NCBI GenBank assembly: GCA_963745605.1
Contig: CAVUYC010000015.1
Location: 11,437-75,436, forward strand
Length of the DNA: 64,000 nucleotides
From: an uncultured Chloroflexia bacterium
GTDB lineage: Bacteria > Chloroflexota > Dehalococcoidia > Dehalococcoidales > UBA2162
Direction of reading: 5' to 3'
The notes below the pieces were generated by a model, which saw nothing but the letters and a program-made list of their open reading frames with translations, searched no databases and was not told the origin of the DNA. The position numbers and the translations under genes are program-made. The stretch's first letter is position 1, and every line of letters begins with the position of its first letter. Positions 19,887-36,792 of the stretch are shown piece by piece.

Positions 19887-20402
19887 CTAGTCTCTCGCTA
19901 ACGCCCTGAGGAACTCACCAAAGTTTTCCGAAGATTCGAGCTGATCAGATGTCCTTCTGAAGTCACGGGTGGCTCCGTAGTCTCCTGCTTCTTCGTAAAC
20001 CCTGGCAATCCGCCTGGCGAGTTCCTTCACTTTCATCTGCAGCAGGGCCTCGAGTTGAGTCAATCCCTTCTCCAGTTCATCCTTTCGAGCTTCGATGTCA
20101 GACGTTTCTCGCGAGATGCCGAGACTCCTCGTCTCTGCGAGCGAAACAGGCCGGGCCTCGAGGGCCGCCACCCGAGCGAGGAGACCATCCCTTTCTTTCT
20201 GGAGTTGCGCAATCACTTCCTGCTGCTTCAGCACCTTGGTCTCAAGTGCCGTTGTCCGTTCATCTGGGGACACGATCGCGTCAGCCTTCCTCTCCTCGCC
20301 ATCCATGTTCTCAGAGGGCTTTCGGGGAGACGACAAAAGGCCACGGATGTCCGTCAGGACGGCCATTCCCGCCACCCTCTTTTCAGGTCTTTTGGGCTTC
20401 AC
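19887..20402 (-). CDS. Coiled-coil hypothetical protein downstream of parA (start uncertain)
   Basis: Heptad-rich LETKVLKQQEVIAQLQKERDGLLARVAALE and IEARKDELEKGLTQLEALLQ; overlaps the parA 3' end. Confidence 0.7.
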   Translation of the reverse strand: MKPKRPEKRVAGMAVLTDIRGLLSSPRKPSENMDGEERKADAIVSPDERTTALETKVLKQQEVIAQLQKERDGLLARVAALEARPVSLAETRSLGISRETSDIEARKDELEKGLTQLEALLQMKVKELARRIARVYEEAGDYGATRDFRRTSDQLESSENFGEFLRALARD

Positions 20403-21159
20403 GTTCCAAAAGCTCCTTTGCGAGATCCCGGTATTCCTGAGCGCCGGCTGACTTGGACGCATATAAGATCACAGGTAGTTCGTGAACCGGTCCCTCGGCA
20501 AGTTTCGTATGGCGAAAAATGATGGTTTTCAGAAGAGTGTCGCCGAACGTCACCTCCATACTTTCAGACACCTCCTGGCTCAGCCTGGTCCTCCGATCAT
20601 ACATCGTTCTTAGGACTCCCTCGATTTTGAGACCAGGATTGACCTCATCGCGGATCACACCGATGACCTGCAAGAGATGACTCACCCCGTATAAAGTCAA
20701 GGGCTCGCACTGCACTGGAATCAGGACGCCATCGGCGGCAGCAAGAGCATTCATCACGAGTAGTCCCAGCGTGGGCGGACAATCGATCAAAACAAAATCG
20801 TAGTCTGCCTTAGCCGGGGCCAACTTCTTCAGCAGCGCCTTTTCCCGGCCGATCTTGCCGACAAGCTCAGACTCAGCCATCGCAAGGTCTACGCTGGCGG
20901 GCAAGATATGAAAGTTGATCCTTTCACGAGTCATAACGACATCATTCACTTGCACACTTGGATCGACCAGCAGGTGATGGGTCGATTTCTTCAGTTCGGT
21001 AGGGTTAATACCCATACTGAGGGTGAGGGAGGCTTGCGGGTCAAGATCAACCACGAGAACCTTCTTTCCCAAGTCACACAGACTTGCCGCAAGATTGATT
21101 GAGGTGGTGGTCTTTCCGGTTCCGCCCTTGTGTTGGGCGACAGCTATTGTCTTGGCCAT
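20383..21159 (-). CDS. parA: ParA/Soj family ATPase
   Basis: Deviant Walker A KGGTGKTT, DLDPQASL, DCPPTLG, IPVQCE, TMYDRRT. Confidence 0.9.
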   Translation of the reverse strand: MAKTIAVAQHKGGTGKTTTSINLAASLCDLGKKVLVVDLDPQASLTLSMGINPTELKKSTHHLLVDPSVQVNDVVMTRERINFHILPASVDLAMAESELVGKIGREKALLKKLAPAKADYDFVLIDCPPTLGLLVMNALAAADGVLIPVQCEPLTLYGVSHLLQVIGVIRDEVNPGLKIEGVLRTMYDRRTRLSQEVSESMEVTFGDTLLKTIIFRHTKLAEGPVHELPVILYASKSAGAQEYRDLAKELLEREAQKT

Positions 21160-21234: not shown

Positions 21235-22701
21235 CTAATTGGCGAGACCCCTGAGCGCGTCCACTATCCAGATCATTCCTTCAGTATCGCGTCCACAATA
21301 GGTCTCGAGATCCCGGCGGGTTTTCGCTTTCCTGCTATCGGGCATTTCCCCGTAGGTCATATCCAGATATGCCAGGCTCGCCTCATCCCCAACGCTTATG
21401 TCAAGGTCATCGTAACCCTGTCCTGTCAACGTGGGCATAACCTGCTTGATCGATGCGCTTCCTCTCTGCCGGGGATGATAATAACTGAACTCGCGGAACG
21501 GGTCGAGAAGGTCAACCATTCTGGTGCAGACAGAGTCGGCCCATCCCTTGTGTTCAGGGAAGGCCTCTCCGAGCTCCTTCATAATGCCCTCTTCAAAGCT
21601 CTGATTGTAAACCACCACGCTGCCCCTGTTGCCAATCAGCCTGTGCAACTCGGCAATAAACCCCGGTCTTGGGTCTTCCGCATTGTCAGAAAGGAAACCA
21701 AACTTCCAGGCCATAGAACCAGGCCTGTCGACAACGTGCAACGAAAATTGGAACGGCACTTGCTGGTACGGCCTGATGCCGTCGACCAAGGGAACAGCGC
21801 TGTTGAACGTTTCAAAATCAAGGTAATGAACAGGATAGCGAAGGGAACCCAAGAAGGAGCCTATTGCGACCTTGTCGGCATGGTGGCAGGCATTCTGGTC
21901 GCACCACTTTTGAACCTTCTGAGCGTCGGTCAGCTTCAGAGAATCAGGAATATCCTTGAGGAATCGAATCCCCTGGTTCAGAAGGTCAAACCCTTTGGCT
22001 TTGCCACGGTAAAGGTCGAGAACCGTGTTCTCCGGCAGCGTTTCCCAGCATGCAGCGACGGGGCACTCATACGGATCCGTGCAATGAAGACCGACACTGC
22101 TCTCAGGTGGTATTGTCGACGCCATGGCTTCCACCATGGTGCGAACGTGGGTTTCGATTCCCGCCTCGGCTTCCGTCACCCTGTCGCTGACGTCTTCCGC
22201 AGTGAGCAATCCAGCGGGGTCTATCTCCCCACGCTTGACGTACTTGTTATTGATATGCAAAACGTAGCACTTGTTAATCAACATGCCGCGTTTCTGACAA
22301 CAATACTTCTGAAACGAAACGTCCTGAACGTTCTCATCCTTAACTCTGGTCGAACTCTTGACCTCGATGATATCCCATCTCCCGTCGGTCGCGGGTCTTA
22401 GCACGTCAACGTGGGAATACACTGTGTCGGCAAGAATCCCGGCCTCGAAGAATGGCTGTCCTTGTTTGAGGAACTTCGCGGTAAGATCGATTGAATGTCT
22501 GAAGCTAGACTCGGGTACTCGAACTCCCCCGGGGAACAGTCTTTCGGCAAGGCCTTGAACCATGTGTCCTTGGTCGAATAGATGCTGAGTCTGAGCATTC
22601 GGCCTCGGGATAGCATCGGGCGTGTTGACCTGAAGCCAGAGATATTTCAGACACTGAAGGCCGTTAAGGTACCTCGATTTTGAAAGGAACGACGGCGCCA
22701 A
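21235..22701 (-). CDS. DUF2779 domain-containing protein (nuclease-like)
   Basis: LSKSRYLNGLQC..YLWL start, IIEVKSST, YLDFET, PYQQVPFQFSLH, YNQSFE, SASIK, YCGRDT; likely TTG start at 22701. Confidence 0.85.
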   Translation of the reverse strand: MAPSFLSKSRYLNGLQCLKYLWLQVNTPDAIPRPNAQTQHLFDQGHMVQGLAERLFPGGVRVPESSFRHSIDLTAKFLKQGQPFFEAGILADTVYSHVDVLRPATDGRWDIIEVKSSTRVKDENVQDVSFQKYCCQKRGMLINKCYVLHINNKYVKRGEIDPAGLLTAEDVSDRVTEAEAGIETHVRTMVEAMASTIPPESSVGLHCTDPYECPVAACWETLPENTVLDLYRGKAKGFDLLNQGIRFLKDIPDSLKLTDAQKVQKWCDQNACHHADKVAIGSFLGSLRYPVHYLDFETFNSAVPLVDGIRPYQQVPFQFSLHVVDRPGSMAWKFGFLSDNAEDPRPGFIAELHRLIGNRGSVVVYNQSFEEGIMKELGEAFPEHKGWADSVCTRMVDLLDPFREFSYYHPRQRGSASIKQVMPTLTGQGYDDLDISVGDEASLAYLDMTYGEMPDSRKAKTRRDLETYCGRDTEGMIWIVDALRGLAN

Positions 22702-22877
22702 CCTCAACCCCTTATATGGAAATACCCATGGCGTGGATCGAACTCTGTGTACGGAATTATACCCCGGCGCGACGAGTCCAGCAATTTGCGTTACGGATTC
22801 GCTTGTACCTCTTCCGCATTCACCTTGACTGAGCAGGTTGCTACCCTTACGATTCTTTCTAGGCAAAAGGAGAGCTC

Positions 22878-24061: not shown

Positions 24062-24096
24062 TGGGGCACTTTAGCAGGATTGGAGGATCGAGGTAG

Positions 24097-25845
24097 ATGG
24101 CACAGAAATACAAGTGTTTGAATCCGGTCGGCACTCAGGAGCCAATAGACCTCTTGCCCCTGGCGCCGCGACTCGACAAACTCGACGGGAAGAGAATCCA
24201 CCTCAGCATTTGCGGTGAGCCTGATATCACGATCCCACTAGAAAAACGACTCAAGGGTGACTATCCCAACGTTGACTGGACAGTAAAGAAGACTTACGGC
24301 ATCGCCCCGCTCAAGCTCTCAGAGGAAGAAATGAAGACCACGGATGCCGCCATCCTCGGCGTCTGCTGGTGACACGGCGCGGTAAACAGGCAGTTGCCTT
24401 ATTTGACCGATCTCGAGGCCGCAGGTATTCCCACTGTACTAATCGACCTTGCCGAAGAGACCAACAAAGTCCGGCACGACGCACTGATCTACGGCGTGCC
24501 AGCAATGCGCTATGTGGAAGCGTCTCGCACCATGCACGGCGTGCCGGATGTGGATCGTATACTACCCTCAGTCCTGGACGCGCTGGTTCGCCCACTCACC
24601 GACGAGGAAAAGAAGAGCGGAGTCTACGCCCCCAGTACACCGCGCATCCTTTTTGAAGGCTCCTTGGAGGACGCTGAGGAATTCTATAATCAGACGGAAA
24701 GAATTCCCGGAATCCTGGACGCTCCGTTCGCGGTATACACTGATGGTCTGCCGGTTGTCATCCCTACCGAGGAACGCGTCGAGAAGATGCTCAAAGGGAC
24801 CCGCCATAAAGCAGACGAGATCATAAAGCTTCAGCGTGACGTTTATCTCAGAGGCATCGGCGAGGTAAACCCGGGCTCGACGAGAAGAAAGGGTGAAGAG
24901 GTTCGCTTCATGCCCATGGGCCGCATTGCGACCGTCGAGCAGGTCGCCGTCAATGCAGTAATGGCCGGGTGCAAGCCAGAATATCTACCGCTAGTCCTGG
25001 CGATCGCTGAATCAGGCGGAGGAACAGGGGACGGCCGTGGCAATGGTGGATCGTATGTCGTCTCAGGGCCTATCTACAAAGAAATCGGAATGAATGTCAG
25101 CTATGGCAGGTTCAGTCCGGGCAATCCTTCCAACAAGACCATTGGCCGCGTTGGCAGCCTTATGTGGAGGAACCTAGGTGGATATAAGGAGCGCGTGTCC
25201 ACCATCATGACCTACGGAGATCCCTTAACGAACGGAGGGTTCATTATCGCCGAGTACGCCGAAGGTCTGCCCCCGGGATGGAAAGGACTCAACGAGGAAT
25301 TGGGATTCCGAAAAGACGAGAGCGTGCTGATGACGTGCCGGCCCGGCAACTGGGGCATCGGCCAGGAACATATGCCTGGAGTCTACCGATCCCTTCAGAA
25401 GAGCGGCCACGGCGCAATAGCTCGTTTTCTCGACGTTAAGGGAAAACCGGGCCCCCACAACTACATCGAATACATTACCGACAAGATTTGGGGCGACTAC
25501 GAAGGCGGCATAACGCTTATCCTGGTTCCTTCGATGGCCATGGATATGTACAACTATGGCTTCAAGACTAAGGATGCCATCTACGATTACATCTGGAAGA
25601 AGAGCTTCGAGCCCATGTCTCAATACCGCATGCGGGGAAGGCCCGACTGGTTCACAAACGGCTGGACATCAATCGAGAAGACTTCCGGCAAGAGATGGAG
25701 AGAGCTTCCCGATGATTACAGAGTTCCCGCCGGAGGCGAGAGCCCCTGGGAGAACCTCATTCTTGTATGCGATGGCGAAGAGACCGCCAGCGAGCGGTTT
25801 AGCGGCGGCCACGGCGCCGCTTACAGCATCGACGCCTGGAGATAG
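24097..25845 (+). CDS. Putative selenoprotein 1 (582 aa, Sec92, C-W-U-H-G-A), UGSC-like N-domain fused to a conserved unknown domain
   Basis: ORFs 24097-24372 and 24394-25845 are in frame and separated only by TGA 24370-24372; downstream hairpin; same arrangement in paralog 30654-32405. Confidence 0.87.
24373..24409 (+). promoter_or_regulatory. Bacterial SECIS-like hairpin
   Basis: CGGU-AAA-C-AGGC[AGUU]GCCU-UA-UUU-G-ACCG; loop starts 19 nt after the UGA. Confidence 0.8.
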
Positions 25846-25859
25846 ATGCGGCCTAGGTG

Positions 25860-25896
25860 GAGTTGGGCTGTGCCCCCTGGGGGCATCGCCCAACTC
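25860..25896 (+). terminator. Long hairpin after selenoprotein 1
   Basis: GAGTTGGGC-TG-TGCCCCC/GGGGGCA-TC-GCCCAACTC followed by TCTT. Confidence 0.55.
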
Positions 25897-26130
25897 TCTT
25901 ACCCCCCTTCGATCACTCAACTCGAATTTAGGTACTATACCCTAAGGCATAGTACCCGGGTCAACCAACCCGCCATATAGGACTTTTCCTCAGGAAAGAT
26001 AGGCCTTGTGAGTGTTGTCCAAGCTATCTCAACGATCTAGAATCAGTCATCAATTACTGAATTGTATGGGATGCAATGTAAGGATATTGCCTCATGCTAA
26101 TCAAGTCTCAGGGTTGAAGGGAGCGAACCT

Positions 26131-26778
26131 ATGGGCAACACAACAGTTGTGGTCGCAGATGGCCAGGCCCTCTACTGCGAGGGAATAGCTGCATTGCTCA
26201 AGGAGAATGCGGGGTTCGACATCGCCGGAACGGCTTCAAATGGGAAGGAACTCATAAAGACCGCCGAGGACCTTTCGCCTGACGTCATACTCCTCGACGC
26301 TGCCCTTCCTCCGACTTCAGGTCTCGAATGCGTCAAGGAACTTCGCTCGAACGCCGGATCATCGAAGATCCTGGTTCTAACCGAACAAGAGAGCGAATTG
26401 GATATTCTCAGCGGATTCAGGGCTGGGGTAAACGGTTTTCTCTCCAAGAAGTCAAGCTACTCTGATCTTGTTTCAGCGATAAACAGCGTCTCCCGGGGCG
26501 ATTTTGTAGTACACATTTCCATAGACGCCACTACAATGCACGAGTACTTTGATGACTCCACACAGGGACAGGGAACATCGGGGCCGGACAGGCTTACAAG
26601 GCGCGAACGCGAAATCGTCAAACTTGTAGGCGCCGGGACCAGGACCGCAGAGATCGCGCAGCGCTTACAGATTGCCCCCAAGACAGTCTCAGGGCATCGC
26701 GCCAATATCATGAAGAAGCTCGGGGTCCATTCTCAGACTGAACTAGTGAAATTCGCCATCCTGAGGCATATGGTTTAG
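26131..26778 (+). CDS. NarL/LuxR family response regulator
   Basis: REC domain (PDVILLD) plus LTRREREIVKL..TAEIAQRLQIAPKTVSGHRANIMKKL HTH. Confidence 0.92.
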   Translation: MGNTTVVVADGQALYCEGIAALLKENAGFDIAGTASNGKELIKTAEDLSPDVILLDAALPPTSGLECVKELRSNAGSSKILVLTEQESELDILSGFRAGVNGFLSKKSSYSDLVSAINSVSRGDFVVHISIDATTMHEYFDDSTQGQGTSGPDRLTRREREIVKLVGAGTRTAEIAQRLQIAPKTVSGHRANIMKKLGVHSQTELVKFAILRHMV

Positions 26779-26898
26779 TCGTCTGCGCTTGAAAGGAACA
26801 GTTGTTGGTCAAGTCAGGGACTGGTCGCCATTAATTTGTGCCCGTAGAATTGCATCAACCGTCGACTGGAACAAAGTCCAATCCGGGAGGGACGCCGA

Positions 26899-27417
26899 AT
26901 GGGATACTTTGTCTCGCTCATACCCACTGCTGCCGAAGAAGTATCGGCCTTTTTCGATCTGGCTCCAATCTCGCAAACCGACGTAGTTTATGACCTCGGC
27001 TCCGGGGACGGAAGGGTCGTCTTTGCAGCAGCCCGACTGGGAGCAGGAAAAGCGATTGGAGTTGAACTAAATCCTGTGCACGTCGAGGAAGCAAAAAAGA
27101 CAGCGGACAAACTCGGTTTGCATGCTCGAGTCCAGTTCGTTCATGCGGATCTCATGGACATAGATTTGAGCGAAGCTACATTGGTAGTCACCTACCTCTT
27201 CTCAACCGCCTCGGACGCCCTGAGACCAAAGTTCGAGCGAGAACTCAAACCTGGGGCGCGGGTGGTCATGGAATCGTTTCCCATTCACGATTGGGAGCCT
27301 GATGCGATTAAGAGACTGGAGCACCGTACCTTCTATCTCTACACGATGCCGCCGCGTCTGGATACGAGGTGGCCGCCCAAGACCGTCCGCTCGAGCGCGA
27401 CGTCAAAGCCGGACTAA
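26899..27417 (+). CDS. Class I SAM-dependent methyltransferase
   Basis: VYDLGSGDGR, GVELN, ATLVVTYL, ELKPGARVV. Confidence 0.88.
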   Translation: MGYFVSLIPTAAEEVSAFFDLAPISQTDVVYDLGSGDGRVVFAAARLGAGKAIGVELNPVHVEEAKKTADKLGLHARVQFVHADLMDIDLSEATLVVTYLFSTASDALRPKFERELKPGARVVMESFPIHDWEPDAIKRLEHRTFYLYTMPPRLDTRWPPKTVRSSATSKPD

Positions 27418-27620
27418 CGCGCCTGTCGTTGGGAACTCGTGATTACCACCCCTTTGTTCCGCTTCATCAGGCCACAAAACTCGCCCACTCGGGGAATGTT
27501 GAATCGAGGAAGGCCAGCAGCAAGCGCCGTACGCTTCAAACATTGATTGATGTACGACACGGCTTCGGGACACTCTAGCCGCGGTGTAGACGCCATTGAA
27601 CCGCGTCGCTCCAAAGCAAC

Positions 27621-28460
27621 TCAGAGCGTGCTGCCGAGAACAAACCAGTCAATCAGTTCCCGCGCTATCGTCATTTTGGGAGGAATCTCAGGAAGGTGTG
27701 CCGAATCGAACCAGCCAGCCTCGCCTACTTCCAATCCATCAACCTTGATCTCTCCGCTCTCGTACTCAGCGGTGAATCCCAACATCAACGAGTTGGGAAA
27801 AGGCCAGGGCTGACTTGCGAAGTACTTGAGATTCTGCACGCGAATCCCAACCTCTTCGTAGACTTCCCTCTTGAGGCATTCCTCCAGCGTCTCGCCGGGT
27901 TCGACGAAGCCCGCCAGGATACTGAACATTCTCCCCCTCACCCCAGCCCTCCGCGCGAGCAGAATCTTGTCTTCTCTGACGATCGCGGCGATCACCGCCG
28001 GGGAAAGCCGCGGGTAGCTGATGAGACCACAAGCAGGGCATTTCTTCCCTCGTTCACCATGCATCGTCTCAGTAGGATGTCCGCACCTTCCACAGAACTG
28101 GTTTGTCTGGTCCCAGGTCACGATCTGAAGAGCCCTCCCGGCCAGGAGATAAATGTCCTCATCGACGAGGCCGTAGCTCGATCGAAGGTCCACCAATGAC
28201 GTTCCTGCTGGGGCAATGGCACCGGGGGGCAAGTCAGCTGAATAGCAGTTCTTCCCCTCGAGGATCCCAAGATATTGGGTTCTCACCGCCACGATGTTCC
28301 AATTGCGCAGGTCCTCCACGGAGGGCGTGCTCGCAGTTTGCCCAGCAGTCTTCAGTAGAATCTTGCCTTCCGCAAAAGCAAAGACATATGCGTTGTCCTC
28401 AAGCTCTGTGGGAGGCGTTACCAGAGGGACAAAACGATTGTAGATGCTCATCCTGGTCAT
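27621..28460 (-). CDS. nudC: NAD(+) diphosphatase
   Basis: Zn ribbon FCGRCG..CPACG, YPRLSPAVI, Nudix box AGFVEPGETLEECLKREVYEEVG, SQPWPFPNS. Confidence 0.93.
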   Translation of the reverse strand: MTRMSIYNRFVPLVTPPTELEDNAYVFAFAEGKILLKTAGQTASTPSVEDLRNWNIVAVRTQYLGILEGKNCYSADLPPGAIAPAGTSLVDLRSSYGLVDEDIYLLAGRALQIVTWDQTNQFCGRCGHPTETMHGERGKKCPACGLISYPRLSPAVIAAIVREDKILLARRAGVRGRMFSILAGFVEPGETLEECLKREVYEEVGIRVQNLKYFASQPWPFPNSLMLGFTAEYESGEIKVDGLEVGEAGWFDSAHLPEIPPKMTIARELIDWFVLGSTL

Positions 28461-28720
28461 GCATGATCCACCCTTTTCACGTCGACTCCAATCCGGCTGC
28501 TTCCAGAGGATCCCGGACGTTTGTTGACACGATACTGAGCCCGATGATAGTATCACCAGCACGATCCCGGACGGTAATTGGGGCACTATTTTTGCCTCGA
28601 TGAGAACAACAAAGGAGGAGACTATAGCACTTAGAATTCGCTAAATTTGCCAGTATACCCAGGCAGAAAGCTGACCATCCATCGTTAGCAAGGGAACAGC
28701 AACGTTTTGGAGGAAAGACT

Positions 28721-30553
28721 TTGAAAAGAAATTTGGCGTGCATTCTTCTGTCTTCGCTTGTTTCTGGCATTCTGGTCCTGGCGTCATGCTCCCAGCCCAC
28801 GCAAACGACAACCGCTAATCCCGTCCCCACCTCCACAACATCGTCACAGACGACGACTACTACCAAGCCGGTTTCTACGACAACCACCACAGCTGAAAAG
28901 CCGAAATACGGCGGCACAATCAACATCGCCGCTGCTGCCGACCCGGTCTACTGGGATCCGATACGGACGGTGGTTAGCCAAACGATCAACCTGACCCACG
29001 AGCAGACATTTCAAGGCGACTGGGCGAAAGGAACTGCCGGCGGCTTCGGCACCGGAGAAACAGACTGGGGATATGCCGACAACGACCTTTTTGACCTCAA
29101 GACCGGATATGTCGCGGAGAGCGTCAAGTGGACCACTGATGCGGCAAACAACGTGGGCTTCGTCGTATACAAAGTGCGCCAAGGCATCCATTGGGCGTTG
29201 GATCCCAACAACGAGGCCAGCCGCTTAGTGAACGGCCGCGAGCTGACGGCCGACGATGTCCTCTTCTCGTTCAAATGGTCAACAACCTATGCACAAGGCT
29301 ATGTCTTCCGCAACAACCAAGAACTGAGGACTGCCGAGTTCACCAAGACGGCACCGTGGGAGGTAACGGTCAAGGTCCCGCTTGCAGCGCTTATGATGGC
29401 TGTGACCCGTTACAACGACACAGTCATGATCGTACCGCCAGAAGTTGTAAACAAGTACGGTAACATGGACGACTGGAAGACTTCGGTTGGCACGGGACCG
29501 TTCATCTTGTCGGACTTCGTATCCAACAGTGTCACAACTCTCAACAGGAATCGCAACTGGTACGTCAAAGACCCTGTGGGTCCAGGCAAAGGCAACCAGT
29601 TGCCATATGTTGACCGTGTCAAAGTGTTCAGCATAGCCGATACCTCTACACGCTTGGCCGGTCTTCGCACGGGGAAGATCGACGAAATGAGCAGTGTCCT
29701 CCTTGAAGACTACCAGTCGCTCAGCAAGACCACCCCACAGATGAAGGTACAGTACTCTGATTCGTTTCAAGGCAGGGGCAACCCTCCCCTGGCGATGAGG
29801 ATAGATACTAAACCGTTCAACGACATCAAGGTCCGCAAGGCCATGAACATGGCGATCGACTTCAACTCCATACTCAAAGGATACAGGGGCGGGGAAGGGC
29901 AGATCTATACCTGGCCTCACTCCAAGATCAAGGAGTACCAAGAACTCTATCTGGACTACAACGACTACTCTGCAGCAGCCAAGGAACTGTACAGCTACAA
30001 TCCCGAAAAGGCCAAACAACTCCTTAAGGAAGCTGGATATCCCAGCGGATTCAAGACCAACATCATTCTCATCCAAGATGAGGTGGACCTTATTTCGATC
30101 TACGCCGACTACCTGTCGAGGATAGGCATCGAGATGGCGCTCGATGTCAAAGAAACCGCGGTCAAGACAAACATCCAGAACAACAAGCAGCACACGCAGA
30201 TGATAACAGGCGACACCGCCCCGATAGCTATTTTCTACAACGGCCAGCCGATCTCGGGCGTTTCCCACAACAACCGCAGCATGGTAGACGACCCGTTCAT
30301 CAACGAGAAGCTTGTGCCCATCAGGGCGGCGATGCTGACGGACCAACGCCAGGCGATGAGGATGTACCGAGAGTTAACCAAGTACGTCGTTGAACAAGCA
30401 TATGTTATTCCCGCCGTCACACCCGGATATCGAACGCTGTGGTGGCCATGGATCAAGAATTATTCGGGCGAGCTCAATGTGGGCTACGACGATCCCATAT
30501 TCCCGGCGTTCCTCTGGGTCGACCAAGACTTGAAGAGCAGCATGGGTTACTGA
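28721..30553 (+). CDS. ABC transporter solute-binding lipoprotein, family 5 (Opp/Dpp-like)
   Basis: Lipobox VLASC, Thr-rich linker, KPKYGG, GRELTADDV, VGTGPF, PFNDIKVRKAMNMAID, YNPEKAKQLLKEAGYP. Confidence 0.93.
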   Translation: MKRNLACILLSSLVSGILVLASCSQPTQTTTANPVPTSTTSSQTTTTTKPVSTTTTTAEKPKYGGTINIAAAADPVYWDPIRTVVSQTINLTHEQTFQGDWAKGTAGGFGTGETDWGYADNDLFDLKTGYVAESVKWTTDAANNVGFVVYKVRQGIHWALDPNNEASRLVNGRELTADDVLFSFKWSTTYAQGYVFRNNQELRTAEFTKTAPWEVTVKVPLAALMMAVTRYNDTVMIVPPEVVNKYGNMDDWKTSVGTGPFILSDFVSNSVTTLNRNRNWYVKDPVGPGKGNQLPYVDRVKVFSIADTSTRLAGLRTGKIDEMSSVLLEDYQSLSKTTPQMKVQYSDSFQGRGNPPLAMRIDTKPFNDIKVRKAMNMAIDFNSILKGYRGGEGQIYTWPHSKIKEYQELYLDYNDYSAAAKELYSYNPEKAKQLLKEAGYPSGFKTNIILIQDEVDLISIYADYLSRIGIEMALDVKETAVKTNIQNNKQHTQMITGDTAPIAIFYNGQPISGVSHNNRSMVDDPFINEKLVPIRAAMLTDQRQAMRMYRELTKYVVEQAYVIPAVTPGYRTLWWPWIKNYSGELNVGYDDPIFPAFLWVDQDLKSSMGY

Positions 30554-30653
30554 ACTTGGGGAGATCCGAAGGAAGACGCAGGAAACACGTAACGTAGATA
30601 CAGAATCGACTCGTCGAAGCGCTCCAAGGCGCAGAATAGACTAAGGAGAACAC

Positions 30654-32405
30654 ATGGCCGAAAAGTACAGATGTCTCAATCCCGTGGGCACACAGGAACC
30701 AGTGGACCTGAATCCGCTAGCGCCACGCCTTGACAAGTTGGACGGGAAGAATATTTACGTCAGCATCGGCGCGGGCGGCGAACAGGACATCACGATCCCA
30801 CTGCCCCAGGCGTTGCAGCGAGCCTTTCCTAATGTCAACTGGCACGTGACGAGGGCTGCTCCTCATATGACGATCGCTGGAAGCATCGCTCTCTCCCCGG
30901 AGGAGATGAAGACAGCCGACGCGCTTATCCGCGGCGTTGTGTGGTGACACGGCGCGATATGGGAGCAGTTGCCTACCCTATCGAGCTACGAAAAAGCCGG
31001 CATTCCCAGCGTCTTCATAATCTACGGCGACCAGGACGGATGCTGGAGGCAAGCCTGCAAAGTAAACGGCGTTCCAGGAATCCGCTGTGTGCATGCCTCT
31101 CGCACCACGCCGGGGGTCCCCGACGTTGACAGAATGGTGCCCGAGCTGATCGACGCCCTCATGCGCCCGCTGACTGCTGAAGAGAAGAAGAAGGGCCGGT
31201 GGGAAGTCTCCAACGACAGAATCCTCTTTGAAGGGACTCTAGAAGAGGCTGAGGAATTCTATAATCAGACCGAGTTCATACCCGAGATCAAGGCTTCTCT
31301 CGCCAAGTATGGCGATGGTCTTCCCGTCAGAGTTCCCACTGAAGAACGGGTGGCTGCGATGCTGAAGGGCACCAGCCACAAAGCGGATGAGATAATCCGG
31401 TTCCAGAGGGACCACAGACTTGGGGACCGGTCCATCCAGATCGGCAACTCCGGCAAAAAGGGTGATCCGGTACATTACCTGCCGATGAAACGCACAGCCA
31501 CCGTAGAGAAGCTTGCTGCTATCGCGGTCATGGCCGGCTGCAAACCAGAGCACATGCCTGTCCTGCTTGCCATGGCTGAGTCGGGCGGCGGCTGCGGTGA
31601 CGGCCGAGGCAGGGACGGGTATATCATCAGTGGCCCTTATTACAAAGAGATCGATATGAACGTGGACATCGGCATCATGGGCCAGGGTAGCGTCACCAAC
31701 CGTTCTCTAGGGCGCGCCTCTCAATTGATGTTCAAGAATCTGGGTGAGAATATACCCGGACGCACCAACTGCGGCATCTGGGGCAGCCCGCTTCACAACG
31801 TGTTCGCTGAGAACATGGACGCTCTACCCGAAGGATGGGAAGGACTGAACGAGGAATGCGGTTTCGAGAAGAATCAGAGCCTTCTGGTACAAGCAGCCTC
31901 GGGCGGCGGTGCGAGGGTACAGTTCTCCCCTGGCGGCTATCGAGCTTTCCAGAAAAGCGGCCACGGCGGCATCGCCCGGTCCTTGGGGGTCAAGGGCAAA
32001 CCTGGCCCCCACAATTGGCTTGAGTACATCACCCCGGGACTTTGGGCCAGGGCGGAAGGCGGAATTACGGTGTTCATGTTCCCAGAGATGGCACAGCAGC
32101 TTCGCGATTGGGGCTTCAAGTCTAAGGACGAGATCTACGAGTTCCTTTACAAGAAGAGCTTCATGCCACTCGGCGAGTACCGGATGCACTCGTGGCCGGA
32201 TATGCGCACCAACGCGTGGCTCGGTATCGAGAAGACTTCAGGCAAGCATTGGAAAGAACTTTCTGATGACTACATGGTCCCAGCCATGAATGATCCATTC
32301 GACAACTGTGTGATCGTCACCGGCAACGGCGAAGAGTCAACCATGATCGGCGGCGGCAGGACGGGCGGTCCTGACGCAGCCTGGAGCATCGACGTCTGGC
32401 GCTAG
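30654..32405 (+). CDS. Putative selenoprotein 2 (583 aa, Sec98, V-W-U-H-G-A), paralog of 24097-25845
   Basis: ORFs 30654-30947 and 30969-32405 are in frame across TGA 30945-30947; SECIS-like hairpin; end-to-end similarity to paralog (CLNPVGTQEP...SIDxWR). Confidence 0.87.
30948..30986 (+). promoter_or_regulatory. Bacterial SECIS-like hairpin
   Basis: CGAUA-U-GGG-A-GC[AGUU]GC-C-U-A-CCC-UAUCG; loop starts 19 nt after the UGA. Confidence 0.8.
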
Positions 32406-32507: not shown

Positions 32508-33738
32508 ATGCTTAGTCCCTATCGAGTCCTGGACCTCACCGACGAAAAAGGACTTCTTTGCGGAAAGATACTGGGCGACATTGGCGCGGACGTAATTAAG
32601 ATCGAGAGGCCAGGCGGAGACCGCTCCAGAGGCGTCGGCCCCTTCTATCACGACGAGCCTCACCCTGAGAAGAGCCTCTTCTGGTTCGCTCTGAATACGA
32701 GCAAGAGAGGAATCACTCTCAATCTGGAGACGGTAGACGGGCGCGAGATCTTTATGCGGCTGGTCAAGAAAGCCGATTTTGTGGTCGAATCCTTTCCTCC
32801 CGGTTACCTTGGCGGGATCGGTCTCGGGTATCAGGACCTCGAGAAGATCAACCCTGGCGTGATTGTCATTTCCATCACGCCATTCGGGCAGAGCGGACCT
32901 TATAAGGACTGGAAGACTTCGGATATCGTGGCGTGGGCAATGGGCGGAGAGATGGCTCCCTACGGGGATGCCGACCGGCCGCCAACGCGATTCAGCCATC
33001 ATTCTCAAGCATATCTTCATGCAGGTTCCGACGGTGCCCAAGGTGCGCTGACTGCCTTATACCATCGCTGGGAAACTGGCCAAGGACAGCAGATAGATGT
33101 GTCCATCCAGGAATCCGTAGTGCAATGTCTGGAACACCACACGGCGAACTGGGACCTCAGACACGCATTGGCCAAGCGCGACGCGAAATTCCGGATGGGT
33201 GCGGCCCACCAGACCACGCTGCTATGGCCATGCAAAGACGGTTGGGTATCATGGTCGCACGGGGGTAACTCCGTACTCGCTCCTAGTCTTCCCCTGATCA
33301 AGTGGATGCAGGCTGAAGGGTCTAGCAACGAGTTTTTGGACAATTTCAACTGGGACATGCCCGATTTCCCAAAGATATCTCAAGAGGAAATGGACAAGAT
33401 TGAGGAGCCGACGGCGCGCTTCTTCATGAAGCATACGAAGGCCGAACTTCTCGAGGGTGCCGTTAAGTACAAAGTCATGATGTATCCCGTCGCGACAGCG
33501 GACGATATGCTCGAGAACAGGCAACTCGAAGGCGCGAAAGTTCTGGGTGAAGCTTGAACACCCCGAGCTTGGCGAGAGCTTCTCCTATCCGGGAGCTTTC
33601 GCGGTGTTCTCCGAGTCTCCGATCAAGATTACCCGTCGGGCTCCGCTCATCGGGGAACACAACAAGGAAGTATACGAAGGGGAGCTGGGCATGACCACGG
33701 AAGAGACGGTGGCCCTTAGACAAGCAGGGGTGATTTAG
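32508..33738 (+). CDS. Family III CoA-transferase (CaiB/BaiF, BbsE-like), frameshift near 33531
   Basis: YRVLDLT, GADVIKIERPGGD, NTSKRGITLNL, ITPFGQSGPY, GQGQQIDVS; C-terminal RRAPLIGEHN in the next frame. Confidence 0.85.
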
Positions 33739-33777
33739 GCACAAACGGAGTTCACTGACACTAAACCGGAGGAATCC

Positions 33778-34966
33778 ATGCAGAAGAAACTACTTGAGGG
33801 AATCAGGGTAGCCGATTTCACCTGGCACATGACCGGTCCTATCACCACAAAGCACCTCTCTGACCTCGGAGCCGAAGTGATAATAATAGAGAGCAAACGA
33901 AGGCCGGGCTGGAGGCGCGGGCCGCCCCGCTCAAGCAGTACCGATCAGAATTGCACGAGCAAGCTAAGCGTCACTCTCAACACCAGGGACCCACGAGGGC
34001 TTGATCTGGCGAAACGCATCGTTGCCAAGTCGCACATCATGGTGGAGAATTTCGCCGGCACAGCCATTGCCCGCATGGGCCTCGGCTATGATGTCGTCAA
34101 GCAACTCAAGCCGGACATCATCATGCTGAGTACTTCGATGCAAGGCCAGACAGGACCATACTCAACGCATCCTGGGTCAGGGCACAAACTCACGGCGCTA
34201 TCCGGGTTCGCCAACATCCTTGGCTACCCGGACAGAAAGCCGGGCTGGCTAGACGCTTACACCGATTTCATTGCACCAAGGTACAACATCATTGCCATCA
34301 TGGCAGCCCTGGAGTATCGACGGCGAACTGGCAAGGGACAATATATCGATATGTCTCAATACGAGTCGGGCATTCACTTCATGTCGCCGCTCGTACTCGA
34401 TTACGAGGCGAACAGGCGTGTTGCGGGCAGAATCGGGAACAAGTGTGATTCCGCGGCACCTCATAATGCCTACCGTTGCCTCGGCCAAGACCGCTGGTGT
34501 GCCATTTCGGTCTTCACCGACCAAGAGTGGAAGAGCTTTTGCACGGTAATGGGGAATGCGGACCTTGCAGATGACCCGAGGTTCCGGACACTTCTCATGC
34601 GCAAGAAGCAATGAGGAGGAACTGGACGAGCTTGTCAACGAATGGACCAGCTACTCGGGCCGGCGAAGAGGTGATGAACTTGATGCAGGCTGCAGGTGTT
34701 CCTGCCGGCACTGGTTGAGACCGGCGAGGACCTCCTCGAGCATGATCCTCATTTGAAGAGTCGCGGTACCTTTGCCGAGCGGAGTACCCTGGCATTGGCA
34801 AGTACAGATCGCAGTTCGGCCCGCACTTCTTCATGTCCAAATACCAATACCAAATGAAGGCCGGCTCCCAAGATGGGAGAGCACAACGAATACGTCCTCA
34901 AGACAGGTCGTCGGCCTTCCGGACTCCGAGTTCGATCAACTGGTCAAGGATGGCGTCATAGACTAA
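33778..34966 (+). CDS. Family III CoA-transferase (BbsF-like), several frameshifts after 34600
   Basis: LEGIRVADFT, VENF, MQGQTGP, AYTDF (catalytic Asp), GKGQYIDMSQ, APHNAYRC; the 3' part switches frames several times, ending ...LVKDGVID. Confidence 0.8.
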
Positions 34967-35074: not shown

Positions 35075-35878
35075 CTATTTCGTCTCCATATCGGTCTTGC
35101 GCCGTCTGGCGATCAATGGAGCGGTGGTCGCCCTGAGGATTCTCAGTTCATCTGCGGTAGGAGGCGTGGTGTCCTTAAGGTTGGGCGACACCTTGAGGGT
35201 CCATCCAGTCTCCGCTTTCACCTTGTCCAAAGTTATTCCGCACCCAGCGTGTACGCTCACCAGGACCATCTCGCCGCTCTCGAACTCATAGCATCCCAAA
35301 TCGCTGACCACAGCGACCGGACCGGTACCTCGCATCATCCCAAGGGACTCCCTCTGCCCTGGCCTGCCGTCAAGATATCCTGGACAGGTATTGAAGTCCA
35401 CTCGCTCTGGAAACCGTCTATTGCTCTGATTCAGCATGATGCAGGTACGCTGACAAAAGCTGACCACGTCGTTAGCTCCACCGCTCCCGGGGAAACGGTG
35501 TACCGGATTGTGATAGTCTCCGATAGCAGTGTCATTGACGTTTCCATATCGATCTATTTGCCCGGCTCCGATAAAGCCCAGGTTGATAAAGCCAGCCTGG
35601 CCAAGGTAGCTTATGTAGCTGAGACCTGCCAGCTTGTCCGCATGGAACTGCGTCCCGAGTGTGTCAGTCCCAGCCGGCAGTTCAAACTCCTCGCTTCTGA
35701 CAATGCCGTTTTCGATGACGAAGGTGCAGTTGGGCGCATGCGTGCGCTTGGCGAGAAGCGCCGCCACCATCGGCAGACCAACCCCAACGTACGCAGCCTC
35801 GTTGTCGCGGATAAGGTGAGCCGCGGATACAATCATCTGATCGTTGGCATCGTATGAGAGAGCATTCTTCTGCGTCAT
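35075..35878 (-). CDS. Family I CoA-transferase beta subunit (GctB-like)
   Basis: VGVGLP, VIENG (catalytic Glu), GAGQIDRYGNVN, PGSGGAND. Confidence 0.9.
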   Translation of the reverse strand: MTQKNALSYDANDQMIVSAAHLIRDNEAAYVGVGLPMVAALLAKRTHAPNCTFVIENGIVRSEEFELPAGTDTLGTQFHADKLAGLSYISYLGQAGFINLGFIGAGQIDRYGNVNDTAIGDYHNPVHRFPGSGGANDVVSFCQRTCIMLNQSNRRFPERVDFNTCPGYLDGRPGQRESLGMMRGTGPVAVVSDLGCYEFESGEMVLVSVHAGCGITLDKVKAETGWTLKVSPNLKDTTPPTADELRILRATTAPLIARRRKTDMETK

Positions 35879-36792
35879 TTCGCCATCTCCTTGTACCCGC
35901 TGAATACAGGCTCGGAAGGAATCTTCTCAACCCGCAAGCGATCAAAGTAGTCGTTCCCCTTGACCGCCCTCCTCAACTCGAGGAATTCGTTCCAGTCTTT
36001 AGTACCGTAAACGAACGAATTCATGAAGTTGTCGTATCCGTCCTCGGAACCTAGCTCCGCCAGCATGCCAGGCCAATCGCCAGAGTAACAGCCGGCGAGA
36101 TGAAGCGGATGAGCCCCCATAGGCTGCTCTACGACAGCGCTGACCCTGTATCCCGGGATAATCGTTCGGTTGGGATCCCGTCGCGTCACGTCGGAACTCA
36201 CTATCTCCTCGGTCGTAATAATGACGGTCCTGCTGGCATTGATGCCCTCCGCGTCAACTCCAAGGCTCCCATACCTCTGAGCATTCCCTTCCGCGTCGCA
36301 TCTTTGTACGTGCAGAATCCCAACGTCAGGGACGATAGCCTTCACCGCGCCAATCCTGCCTCCGGGAGTGAACGGATCATCTATCACTGTGATGTTCGGA
36401 TTGAACTTAAGCATGTCCGAACCGGATTGGCTGCGAATCGGCAGGAAGGACACCCCCATATGCCCCGCCATGAGCGCCTGAGCGATCCCGAAATGCGAAT
36501 ACTCAATAAACTCAGGATACTTCTCGAGCGACTTTGCGCGCATAAGCCAGTACGCCCGTGTCCATTCCTGGCCATAATACCCCGTGTAGACTCTGTCCAC
36601 ACGCCCCTCGCCAATCATGAGGCTCAGCGAAGTGAAAAGGCACCCCACCGTAGACAGGTGATCTATCTTCTGCCTAAGTATCTCAACCACTGCTGCAAAC
36701 GGCTCTCCGTGTTGCATTCCACCGATAAAAACGAGATTACCGCTCTTGACATACCTGGAGACCGCATCATACATGGACATTACTTTAGTCAC
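35875..36792 (-). CDS. Family I CoA-transferase alpha subunit (GctA-like)
   Basis: AGHMGVSFLP, PDVGILHVQRCDAEGN, DPNRTIIPG, PMGAHP; ATGA overlap with the beta subunit gene. Confidence 0.9.
   Translation of the reverse strand: MTKVMSMYDAVSRYVKSGNLVFIGGMQHGEPFAAVVEILRQKIDHLSTVGCLFTSLSLMIGEGRVDRVYTGYYGQEWTRAYWLMRAKSLEKYPEFIEYSHFGIAQALMAGHMGVSFLPIRSQSGSDMLKFNPNITVIDDPFTPGGRIGAVKAIVPDVGILHVQRCDAEGNAQRYGSLGVDAEGINASRTVIITTEEIVSSDVTRRDPNRTIIPGYRVSAVVEQPMGAHPLHLAGCYSGDWPGMLAELGSEDGYDNFMNSFVYGTKDWNEFLELRRAVKGNDYFDRLRVEKIPSEPVFSGYKEMAK

What the first reader, a model, noticed from the sequence alone, without database searches (positions are those of the whole stretch)
24097..32405. Two paralogous ~580-aa selenoproteins with an unusual W-U-H-G-A site, each split in two by standard gene calling
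Seen: both loci are a short ORF plus a long ORF in the same frame, separated only by one TGA and the same 21-nt gap. They read DAAILGVCW*HGAVNRQLPYLTDLEAAGIPTV and DALIRGVVW*HGAIWEQLPTLSSYEKAGIPSV. The TGA is at the aligned position in two otherwise diverged paralogs, so an independent error or nonsense mutation is unlikely. From memory, the N-domain (LAPRLDKLDGK...LE.AGIP.V) resembles the UGSC (seleno)protein family, whose site is U/C-G-S-C. Here it is U-H-G-A with no +3 Cys, and only paralog 1 has a Cys at -2. Inference: an uncharacterised selenoenzyme subfamily, fused to a large DGLP..PTEERV..AVMAGCKPE domain.
Basis: partly seen in the sequence, partly recalled or inferred. Interest (0 to 1): 0.92.

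Follow-up and report, generated by a model that had tools for sequence, protein, structure and literature searches.

The report
Expanded selenoprotein family lacking resolving cysteine
Both split genes are real selenocysteine-coding genes from a family with a dozen or more copies per genome in one group of Dehalococcoidales bacteria, and public databases hold them only in truncated form.

Summary
Window 24097-25845 and 30654-32405 are single 582/583-codon frames, each with one TGA (codons 92 and 98). They are 54% identical.

The TGA is conserved. In 41 related genomes, all 146 listed matches that cover this codon hold a TGA. A hairpin capped by an invariant CAGUUG follows 18 nt downstream. Gene callers mistake its UUG for a start codon. 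selA and a Sec-type selD are present. selB and tRNA-Sec were not found in this 60%-complete genome, but they sit beside selA in same-genus genomes, and here the contig ends at selA.

These two genes are 2 of about 13 copies in this genome. One relative has at least 23. The clade (W-U-[H/S]-[G/N]-A) forms one well-supported group. It was found only in the window's own taxonomic family and in Dehalococcoidales or "Chloroflexia" MAGs.

It belongs to the known UGSC selenoprotein superfamily, in which 83 of 96 domains have Cys at +3. A fusion of UGSC to an unnamed domain was reported in 2008.

New here: the loss of the +3 Cys, the size of the expansion, profile-level homology of the Sec segment to GrdB-family proteins, and a confidently modelled C-domain with no match in the PDB. 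The function is inferred only: a substrate-specific Sec-dependent reductase.

The parts
24097..25845 (+). Paralog 1, full selenoprotein gene (582 codons plus TAG stop). GGAGG lies at 24082-24086, 10 nt before the ATG.
24370..24372 (+). In-frame TGA read as Sec (U92), in the context C-W-U-H-G-A.
24379..24407 (+). Proposed SECIS hairpin (alignment A3 columns 16-44). The apical loop AGUU is at 24392-24395. The TTG at 24394-24396 is the Leu codon that gene callers take as a start.
24097..24612 (+). N-terminal UGSC-like alpha/beta domain (residues 1 to about 172). Sec sits between strand 84-90 and helix 93-108 of the model.
24619..25842 (+). C-terminal domain of about 400 aa with no Pfam family and no PDB fold match. 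Probably the 'Unknown_1' domain of the 2008 paper. Cys292 lies in the conserved N-A-V-M-A-G-C motif.
30654..32405 (+). Paralog 2, full selenoprotein gene (583 codons plus TAG stop). AAGGAG lies at 30643-30648.
30945..30947 (+). In-frame TGA read as Sec (U98), in the context V-W-U-H-G-A.
30954..30982 (+). Proposed SECIS hairpin of paralog 2. The loop AGUU is at 30967-30970 and the miscalled TTG start at 30969.
28721..30553 (+). Neighbour: ABC-type solute-binding protein (SBP_bac_5). This family recurs beside 3 copies in this genome.
32508..34614 (+). Neighbours: two CoA-transferase family III genes (32508-33557 and 33778-34614). This family recurs 5 times beside copies in this genome.
35875..36792 (-). 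Neighbour: CoA_trans (family I CoA-transferase subunit). It recurs 3 times beside copies in this genome.

Best explanation
Both loci are intact genes whose single in-frame UGA is decoded as selenocysteine. Decoding is directed by a SECIS hairpin that starts 9 nt after the UGA and is capped by an invariant C-AGUU-G.

The proteins belong to a lineage-specific, heavily duplicated clade of the UGSC two-domain selenoprotein superfamily. The N-terminal alpha/beta domain carries Sec at the start of a helix. Its Sec segment is homologous to the Sec segment of GrdB-family proteins (Pfam GRDB). From recall, that family comprises selenoprotein B of the glycine, sarcosine and betaine reductases and PrdB of D-proline reductase. 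The C-terminal domain of about 400 aa has no known fold. It is always fused to, or encoded next to, the UGSC domain, and presumably holds the substrate.

Inferred mechanism: Sec acts as the nucleophilic or redox centre on a small organic substrate bound by the C-domain. Each paralog would then be a substrate-specific reductase, as the GrdB-type proteins are. Because this clade has lost the +3 Cys of the U-x-x-C motif, the Se-S (or Se-substrate) intermediate must be resolved some other way. Candidates are Cys at -2 where present (C-W-U), the clade-invariant Cys292 of the C-domain, or an external thiol.

Shown: the gene structure, the conservation of the UGA, the hairpin, the Sec machinery, the family relations and the expansion. 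Inferred: any chemistry.
For: Sec decoding:
- 146 of 146 listed matches that cover the codon hold a TGA. 37 of 37 fetched copies have TGA at the aligned column.
- CAG-TTG is invariant in 38 of 38 sequences, although both codons have synonymous alternatives.
- For the proposed 12-bp hairpin, 75.4% of cells are paired, against 36-48% when the partners are slid by 1-3 columns. 0 of 500 shuffles reach the observed value.
- Pair 25-36 is AU in 22, GC in 13, GU in 2 and other in 1. Column 36 is the synonymous third base of a Pro codon.
- One copy keeps the stem by changing GGC/GCC to AAC/GUU, at the cost of a Pro-to-Phe change (L029).
- TGA is an ordinary stop here: 22 of 49 long ORFs in the window end in TGA, and both paralogs end in TAG.
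- selA scores 476 bits. selD scores 338 bits and reads C-A-G-U-A-G-K.
- In same-genus genomes G001, G002 and G004, selA, selB and tRNA-Sec are clustered.
- None of the 11 relatives without any selA match has the family.
- An independent 434-nt contig with 4 differences elsewhere bridges the TGA unchanged.

Family relations:
- UGSC-type copies with U-x-G-C share the C-domain in the same genome.
- All 80 of 80 loci from many phyla carry an N-domain fused or adjacent to the C-domain. Of their 96 N-domains, 72 are UxxC and 11 are CxxC.
- hhalign of the N-domain profile against Chloroflexota GrdB-family proteins gives probability 94.5% and E 8e-8, with the Sec columns aligned.
- The 47 W-U sequences form one side of a branch with SH-aLRT 100. 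The motif columns were excluded from this tree.

Redox or catabolic role:
- A thioredoxin-reductase-like gene lies directly downstream in 4 loci from different phyla. SDR genes recur in 9 loci and acyl-CoA synthetase-type genes in 6.
- In this genome, CoA-transferases (5 family III and 3 family I), 5 SDRs and 3 solute-binding proteins recur beside the copies.
- Cys292 is present in 38 of 38 W-U sequences.
Against: - selB and tRNA-Sec were not found in the window's own genome. The genome is only 60% complete, and selA lies at the end of a contig.
- Folded alone, the two hairpin regions are no more stable than shuffled sequence (z = -0.14 and -0.66). RNAalifold did not recover the hairpin.
- Two covariation measures are not far above the slid controls: 30 cells changed on both sides against 26-28 at slides +2 and +3, and a score of 0.203 against 0.185.
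- No selenium incorporation, RNA or protein evidence exists.
- No function is shown. The C-domain has no Pfam, PDB-sequence or fold relative.
- Sec or Cys is not universal in the superfamily. Ser, Thr, Met and Leu forms exist, and one genome (G028) mixes about 7 TGA-bearing matches with 15 or more matches without a TGA. The core function of the C-domain therefore may not need Sec.
- The Cys292 idea is weak. 9 of 44 fused UxxC forms also have Cys there, and the locus search pattern allowed only C or A at that position.
- Pfam GRDB itself does not hit these proteins.
Confidence: 0.62

Rival explanations
1. Sec is real, but it serves as a ligand to a metal or cofactor, or as a purely structural or regulatory residue. 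It is not a nucleophile in substrate reduction. The protein could be a binding, sensing or carrier protein.
For: The +3 Cys that defines the redox motif of the superfamily is absent. Superfamily members with Ser, Thr, Met or Leu at the site exist, and some of these carry signal or lipoprotein-like N-termini. The N-domain model also resembles periplasmic-binding and receiver-type alpha/beta folds at Z 8-9. From recall, Sec-His adjacency (U-H) also occurs in formate dehydrogenase, where Sec ligates molybdenum.
Against: His after Sec is not conserved: many copies have U-S-G or U-S-N. The Sec segment is homologous to GrdB-family proteins. Thioredoxin-reductase-like neighbours in other phyla point to thiol/selenol redox chemistry. 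No metal-binding motif was found.
Confidence: 0.2
2. The UGA is a true stop. Each locus is then two genes (a 91-97-aa peptide and a protein of about 480 aa) or a pseudogene.
For: Gene callers annotate it this way. All 120 of the 120 best database hits are 466-489 aa, and 95 of those 120 begin at the Leu codon after the TGA. Three copies in this genome do look frameshifted.
Against: The frame, the spacing and the TGA are conserved across 146 of 146 matches down to about 50% identity. The called start is an invariant TTG inside a conserved hairpin, with no Shine-Dalgarno sequence before it, whereas GGAGG or AAGGAG precede the upstream ATGs. Cys replaces the TGA in homologs. The N-domain would be cut in the middle of its fold.
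Confidence: 0.03
3. The UGA is read as another amino acid, through a reassigned code or near-cognate readthrough (Trp or Cys), and not as Sec.
For: No direct evidence of selenium. selB and tRNA-Sec were not found in this incomplete genome.
Against: TGA ends 22 of 49 long ORFs in the window. A conserved hairpin lies at the distance expected for SECIS. selA and a Sec-type selD are present, and the full machinery is found in same-genus genomes.
Confidence: 0.04

Closest known systems
UGSC-containing selenoprotein family (Pfam PF24696; NCBIfam NF041046), including the 'UGSC/Unknown_1' fusion noted by Zhang and Gladyshev 2008 (PMC2398784)
   Same: Sec lies at the same alignment column after a D-A-x-I-x-G strand and before the ...E-x-x-G-I-P-T-V segment. 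The N-domain is of the same kind. The C-domain is the same one found fused or adjacent in 80 of 80 loci from many phyla. The function is unknown in both.
   Different: The motif is W-U-[H/S]-[G/N]-A with no Cys at +3, whereas 83 of 96 superfamily domains have it. HMM scores are at or below threshold. The proteins are about 580 aa, not the roughly 147 aa of the NCBIfam profile. There are 13 to 23 or more copies per genome. The clade was found only in one taxonomic family and in named Dehalococcoidales or 'Chloroflexia' MAGs. I could not see Fig. S1A, so the identity of 'Unknown_1' with this C-domain is presumed.
GrdB/PrdB family (Pfam GRDB, PF07355). From recall, this is selenoprotein B of the glycine, sarcosine and betaine reductases and PrdB of D-proline reductase.
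   Same: The Sec segment is homologous. hhalign gives probability 94.5% and E 8e-8 over about 94 columns, with Sec aligned. Both have the pattern strand-U-G-x-x...E-x-A-G-I-P. The idea of substrate-specific paralogs of a Sec-dependent reductase would fit both.
   Different: GRDB's domain of about 347 aa before the Sec is absent here, and Pfam GRDB does not match. Sec lies near the N-terminus, followed by an unrelated C-domain. A pyruvoyl partner (GrdE or PrdA), GrdA and GrdC/D were not looked for. Only the Sec segment was compared, not the reaction.
Reductive dehalogenase (rdhA) gene expansions in Dehalococcoidia (recalled, an analogy only)
   Same: Many paralogs of one putative reductase per small genome, often in tandem arrays. 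For example, 5 copies lie within 13 kb in G017:C56.
   Different: No sequence or cofactor relation was tested or is expected. The resemblance is only in the genomic pattern.

Membership tests
Bacterial selenoprotein gene (Sec-UGA decoding) | In-frame UGA conserved at one column among homologs, with Cys in some homologs | tested here: met
   146 of 146 covering matches hold a TGA. 37 of 37 fetched copies have TGA at the aligned column. 11 CxxC forms occur among 96 N-domains.
Bacterial selenoprotein gene (Sec-UGA decoding) | SECIS hairpin just downstream of the UGA | tested here: met
   CAGTTG is invariant in 38 of 38. 75.4% of cells are paired against 36-48% in slid controls. Pair 25-36 is AU in 22 and GC in 13. 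Against this, single-sequence folding z-scores are only -0.14 and -0.66, and RNAalifold missed the hairpin.
Bacterial selenoprotein gene (Sec-UGA decoding) | selA, selB, selC (tRNA-Sec) and selD in the same genome | tested here: inconclusive
   selA and a Sec-type selD were found. selB and tRNA-Sec were not found. The genome is 60% complete and the contig ends at selA. In same-genus genomes, selA, selB and tRNA-Sec are adjacent.
Bacterial selenoprotein gene (Sec-UGA decoding) | Selenium in the protein | not testable with these tools
   Needs 75Se labelling or mass spectrometry.
Pfam UGSC (PF24696) | Score at or above the gathering cut-off (25 bits) | tested here: inconclusive
   Paralog 1 scores 25.1 bits. 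Paralog 2 has no hit at E up to 1. On the DNA, 1 of 6 W-U copies matched in the genome passes the cut-off.
Pfam UGSC (PF24696) | U/C-x-x-C motif (Cys at +3) | tested here: not met
   The motifs are U-H-G-A and U-S-[G/N]-A. 83 of 96 superfamily domains have the Cys.
NCBIfam NF041046 UGSC_fam (equivalog) | Score at or above 125 bits, on a 147-position profile | tested here: not met
   20.7 bits for paralog 1 and none for paralog 2. The proteins are 582 and 583 aa.
UGSC/Unknown_1 fusion (PMC2398784) | UGSC-type domain fused to the conserved 'Unknown_1' domain | tested here: inconclusive
   The fusion to one conserved domain is shown. Whether that domain is 'Unknown_1' rests on Fig. S1A, and supplements are closed.
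GrdB/PrdB (Pfam GRDB, PF07355) | Match to the GRDB domain | tested here: not met
   No Pfam hit. No GRDB match in the genome either, although the controls were silent too.
GrdB/PrdB (Pfam GRDB, PF07355) | Homologous Sec-bearing segment | tested here: met
   hhalign probability 94.5%, E 8e-8, Sec columns aligned.
GrdB/PrdB (Pfam GRDB, PF07355) | Pyruvoyl-bearing partner subunit and GrdA/GrdC/GrdD or PrdC partners | not tested
   Not searched for.

The most novel reading that the evidence does not exclude
One family of Dehalococcoidales has radiated a single Sec-dependent enzyme into 13 to 23 or more substrate-specific paralogs per genome. Each pairs a GrdB-like selenol centre that has lost its resolving Cys with a substrate domain of an undescribed fold. 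If so, these small genomes would carry a very large selenoproteome built from one family, largely hidden by mis-annotation. Reductive catabolism of many organic acids or CoA esters would then run on selenium, in a way comparable to the rdhA radiation in their organohalide-respiring relatives.
Probability: 0.25. Interest if true: 0.85.

Novelty: new variant of a known kind. Interest (0 to 1): 0.66.

Why it matters
First, annotation. All 120 of the 120 best database relatives are stored as fragments of about 483 aa, and 95 of them start at a Leu codon inside the SECIS loop. Dozens of selenoproteins per genome are therefore invisible to standard pipelines. Estimates of selenium dependence in sediment Dehalococcoidales may be too low.

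Second, chemistry. The UGSC family is one of the most abundant selenoprotein families in aquatic metagenomes, and its function has been unknown since 2007. Three results here give it testable leads: obligatory pairing with one partner domain, homology of the Sec segment to GrdB-family proteins, and thioredoxin-reductase-like neighbours.

Third, this clade is a natural experiment. Sec is kept in every copy examined while the resolving Cys is lost. That bears on why Sec is kept rather than Cys.

Fourth, the C-domain is a confident model with no PDB neighbour. It is a candidate new fold.

Tried and rejected
- Folding the two downstream regions alone gave z-scores of -0.14 and -0.66, no better than shuffles. 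RNAalifold on 38 sequences chose a different weak structure with no compensatory pairs. I then defined the hairpin from the single-sequence folds and counted pairs on it. Because the structure was derived from these same sequences, the slid controls are the fair comparison.
- Fold searches with the full-length model matched only residues 28-171, and only to generic alpha/beta folds. VIA gave Z up to 9.2. The best Foldseek hit was E 6.5e-5 with TM 0.17.
- For the C-domain model alone, VIA found 0 of 48,161 chains at Z 5 or above (best 4.5). Foldseek found none at E 0.001 or below. Its top hit was class I fumarate hydratase at E 9e-3 and probability 0.14. I rejected this as a lead.
- A PDB sequence search with the family profile found nothing below E 0.09.
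- The ESM Atlas gave only unannotated clusters, plus one at 0.87 in which 41% of members carry UGSC. The named-only search gave no usable hit.
- Cys292 as a relocated resolving Cys. It is Cys in 38 of 38 W-U sequences and in 0 of 6 UxxC or CxxC forms in my first set. In the wider set, 9 of 44 fused UxxC forms also have Cys, and the search pattern allowed only C or A. I keep it only as one candidate.
- hhalign of the C-domain against GrdB-family proteins matched only leftover N-domain residues in some rows. No homology is claimed.
- Sequencing runs: no RNA holder is listed. The DNA contigs laid were partial, and no piece spans the whole gene.
- A scan of the window for other ORF pairs split by a TGA found nothing convincing beyond these two genes.
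- Literature. I searched 'UGSC'/'selenoprotein', 'selenoprotein'+'Dehalococcoidia', 'selenoproteome'+'Chloroflexi' and 'selenocysteine'+'Dehalococcoidia'+'paralog'. I read Table 1 and the start of the text that follows it in section 7 of PMC13188914 (parts 1 and 2 of 3), section 11 of PMC13326102, and passages of PMC2398784, PMC1976440 and PMC9312934. None describes a W-U-H-G-A clade, its expansion or a UGSC-GrdB link. Subscription papers and supplements were not seen. BSepDB lists two Dehalococcoidia with 46 and 49 selenoprotein genes, and I could not see which families these are. They may already include this one.
- One search built a tree but labelled the rows wrongly. One search is the valid run. 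Only rows with at least 400 matched residues were kept (80 sequences, taken from 194 domain rows).


Full report
OBSERVATION. Under the standard bacterial code the region reads as a 91-aa ORF (24097-24372) followed by a 483-aa ORF (24394-25845), and a 97-aa ORF (30654-30947) followed by a 478-aa ORF (30969-32405). Each pair is in one frame, separated by a single TGA and 21 nt. GGAGG and AAGGAG precede the two upstream ATGs. The two proteins are 54% identical end to end, with the TGAs aligned. Both genes end in TAG. TGA is the commonest stop among the long ORFs of the window (22 of 49), so the genetic code is not reassigned.

CONSERVATION OF THE UGA. A six-frame search of 41 related genomes gave 369 matches in 17 genomes, of which 150 are listed. 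The 146 listed matches that begin at query residue 45 or earlier all contain a TGA (145 contain one, 1 contains two). The 4 matches without a TGA begin at residue 108 or later. I fetched 37 copies from 13 genomes, ranging from about 50% to 100% identity. The codon aligned with U92 is TGA in all 37.

Public protein databases hold the family only in cut form. The 120 best of 3,369 hits are all 466-489 aa and carry no Pfam domain. 95 of these 120 begin at the Leu of Q-L-P-Y/F. In a library clustered at 50% identity (2,459 representatives at E 0.001 or below), every one of the 29 representatives that outscore the first full-length protein begins at query residue 100 or later. No close Cys form was seen.

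SECIS. In 38 aligned sequences, the six bases CAGTTG at +22 to +27 from the U of UGA are invariant, although Gln and Leu have synonymous codons. Single-sequence folds place them at the tip of a hairpin with loop AGUU. On a 12-pair model (columns 16-23 with 37-44, a bulge at 24, and 25-28 with 33-36), 75.4% of cells pair. When the partners are slid by 1-3 columns, 36-48% pair. 0 of 500 shuffles reach the observed pairing or covariation score, and 6 pairs show changes on both sides.

The clearest single pair is 25-36: AU in 22, GC in 13, GU in 2 and other in 1. Column 36 is the silent third base of the Pro codon. One copy (L029) rebuilds the stem as GGAAC/GUUCC and pays with a Pro-to-Phe change.

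There are weak points. The two window hairpins are no more stable than shuffles. RNAalifold missed the structure. Two covariation measures are close to the +2 and +3 slid controls.

The loop G-U lies 23-24 nt from the U of UGA. From recall, this is within one base of the G23-U24 of the E. coli fdhF SECIS. The TTG that ORF finders take as the start of the long ORF is the Leu codon in this loop, which explains the identical 21-nt gap.

SEC MACHINERY. The genome (2.1 Mb, 37 contigs, 60% complete) has selA at 476 bits, lying at the very end of a contig (C6:24-1100, minus strand). It has selD at 338 bits, whose N-terminus reads C-A-G-U-A-G-K, so it is itself a selenoprotein. No selB above the cut-off and no tRNA-Sec were found. 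The best Rfam hit is a tRNA-Ser. In same-genus genomes G001, G002 and G004, selA, selB and tRNA-Sec lie side by side, so the missing genes would fall just past the contig end.

Thirteen genomes carry the close family. selA is above the cut-off in 11 of them; the other two are 86% and 69% complete. None of the 11 relatives without any selA match has the family. Kin are not independent, so this is a consistency check and not a statistical test.

SIZE AND RANGE OF THE CLADE. tblastn finds 13 loci at 49% identity or more, plus one fragment, in this genome. Ten look intact. Three are split into two frames or hold a second TGA. G006 (2.1 Mb, 79% complete) has 23 near-full-length copies, each with one TGA, among its 24 matches. 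G001 has at least 18 in the listed rows. Copies often lie in tandem: two in C21 of this genome and five within 13 kb in G017:C56.

In 200 other genomes drawn evenly from the class, none has a match at E 1e-100 or below. A scan of named genome contigs found W-U copies only in Dehalococcoidales or 'Chloroflexia' MAGs (9 of the 96 N-domains). On a tree of 80 sequences, built with the motif columns left out, the 47 W-U sequences form one side of a branch with SH-aLRT 100. The loss of the +3 Cys is therefore consistent with a single event.

WHAT FAMILY IT IS. Pfam UGSC hits paralog 1 at 25.1 bits against a cut-off of 25, and does not hit paralog 2. NCBIfam UGSC_fam gives 20.7 bits against 125. The link is secured by intermediates:
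- The same genome holds three copies with G-[S/G]-U-x-G-C that score 56-72 bits for UGSC and carry the same C-domain.
- Fused homologs of about 570 aa in G010, G020 and G024 read A-A-U-G-S-C at the same column.
- In 80 loci from Acidobacteriota, Thermodesulfobacteriota, Alpha-, Beta- and Gammaproteobacteria, Actinomycetes and other groups, every C-domain is accompanied by a UGSC-type N-domain. It is usually fused upstream. In several Proteobacteria it is a separate gene of about 180 aa just downstream.
- Of the 96 N-domains, 72 are UxxC, 11 are CxxC, 10 have U without Cys at +3 (9 of these 10 belong to this clade), and 3 have another residue or lack the +3 Cys.

[quoted passage not shown] The figure is in a supplement that I could not open.

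LINK TO GrdB/PrdB. Chloroflexota GrdB-family genes were found in 7 of 151 genomes. This count includes the unpublished G076, which I did not otherwise use. They read ...D-A-V-I-L-T-S-T-U-G-T-S-T-R-[C/S]-G...E-L-E-x-A-G-I-P, and one reads U-G-S-C. A profile of 35 N-domains aligns to seven of these proteins with probability 94.5% and E 8e-8, over N-domain profile columns 80-189 against residues 329-427 (94 aligned columns), Sec on Sec. The large GRDB domain that precedes Sec in GrdB is absent here, and the C-domain shows no relation to it.

STRUCTURE. AlphaFold2 gives a confident full-length model (pLDDT 87.3, pTM 0.88). Sec lies between strand 84-90 and helix 93-108 of a three-layer alpha/beta domain. 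That domain matches only generic receiver, SGNH and periplasmic-binding-type folds (Z up to 9.2). No thioredoxin-fold chain is among the 50 rows listed, which differs from the 2008 guess but does not exclude it. The C-domain alone models at pLDDT 89.0 and pTM 0.90, yet no solved chain reaches Z 5 and no Foldseek hit reaches E 0.001. There is also no PDB or Pfam sequence match.

CONTEXT AND MECHANISM. In this genome the copies sit among CoA-transferases (five family III and three family I), five short-chain dehydrogenases, three SBP_bac_5 solute-binding proteins and ABC ATPases. In other phyla the recurrent neighbours are:
- short-chain dehydrogenases in 9 loci;
- AMP-binding (acyl-CoA synthetase-type) enzymes in 6 loci;
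- a thioredoxin-reductase-like flavoprotein directly downstream in 4 loci;
- selB itself, in the alphaproteobacterial split form.

I infer a selenol-based reductase whose C-domain holds a small organic substrate, with the paralogs differing in substrate. With the +3 Cys gone, the resolving thiol could be one of three things: Cys at -2 (C-W-U, present in paralog 1 but not in paralog 2), the Cys292 that is invariant in the clade (38 of 38), or an external thiol.

The Cys292 idea is weakened because 9 of 44 fused UxxC forms also have Cys there. The existence of Ser, Thr, Met and Leu forms, and of a genome that mixes TGA and non-TGA paralogs, shows that the C-domain can work without Sec. No chemistry is shown.

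NOVELTY. The kind is known: the UGSC selenoprotein and its fusion to an unknown domain. I did not find any of the following in the tables and passages I read: the W-U-[H/S]-x-A clade, its expansion to 13 to 23 or more Sec genes per genome, the obligatory pairing of the two domains across phyla, or the GrdB link.

Noticed in passing
G000:C17:52506-53433 (locus L009 1351-2397, minus strand): selD is itself a selenoprotein gene (C-A-G-U-A-G-K near the N-terminus). About 70 codons before its end there is a second TGA, and the last part of the family match lies in another frame. This is a likely frameshift or assembly error.
   Followed up: partly
L163-L167, L169, L170 (Chloroflexota GrdB-family loci): All seven GrdB-family genes examined have a TGA right after the Pfam GRDB domain. 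Six read U-G-T-[S/G]-T-R-[C/S]-G, without Cys at +3. One reads U-G-S-C.
   Followed up: partly
L118, L132, L138, L139, L158 (Alphaproteobacteria and unclassified Pseudomonadota, e.g. Sulfitobacter, Henriciella): This is the split form: a C-domain gene followed by a UGSC gene of about 180 aa (A-D-U-G-S-C-T-T). A selB gene lies about 1 kb upstream, so the pair sits beside the Sec decoding genes.
   Followed up: partly
L090, L104, L116, L129: A thioredoxin-reductase-like flavoprotein gene of about 310 aa (Pyr_redox_2; only L090 was scanned, the other three were grouped with it by BLAST) lies next to the fused UGSC gene in four loci. In three of them it lies directly downstream. The MAGs are labelled as different phyla.
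   Followed up: partly
G028 (same order, another family): This genome has 22 matches to a non-Sec relative (Leu at the Sec column). They are a mix of 7 matches that hold a TGA and 15 that hold none, so it is a second, independent-looking expansion of the superfamily.
   Followed up: partly
G000:C17:15615-17340, G000:C22:108572-110318, G000:C27:18435-20184, and G000:C27:56908-58522 (L072 97-2023): Several copies in the window's own genome are split between two frames or hold a second TGA. They may be pseudogenes or assembly errors.
   Followed up: no
window 24361-24410: Contigs from other metagenomes match only the roughly 40-nt core around the TGA and the hairpin, and then diverge on both sides. 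This core seems to be the most conserved nucleotide stretch among the paralogs.
   Followed up: no
window 18076-19872 (+) and 21235-22866 (-): A 598-aa ORF with no Pfam match, and a DUF2779 protein next to a ParA-like ATPase gene (20383-21159). Both lie upstream of paralog 1.
   Followed up: no
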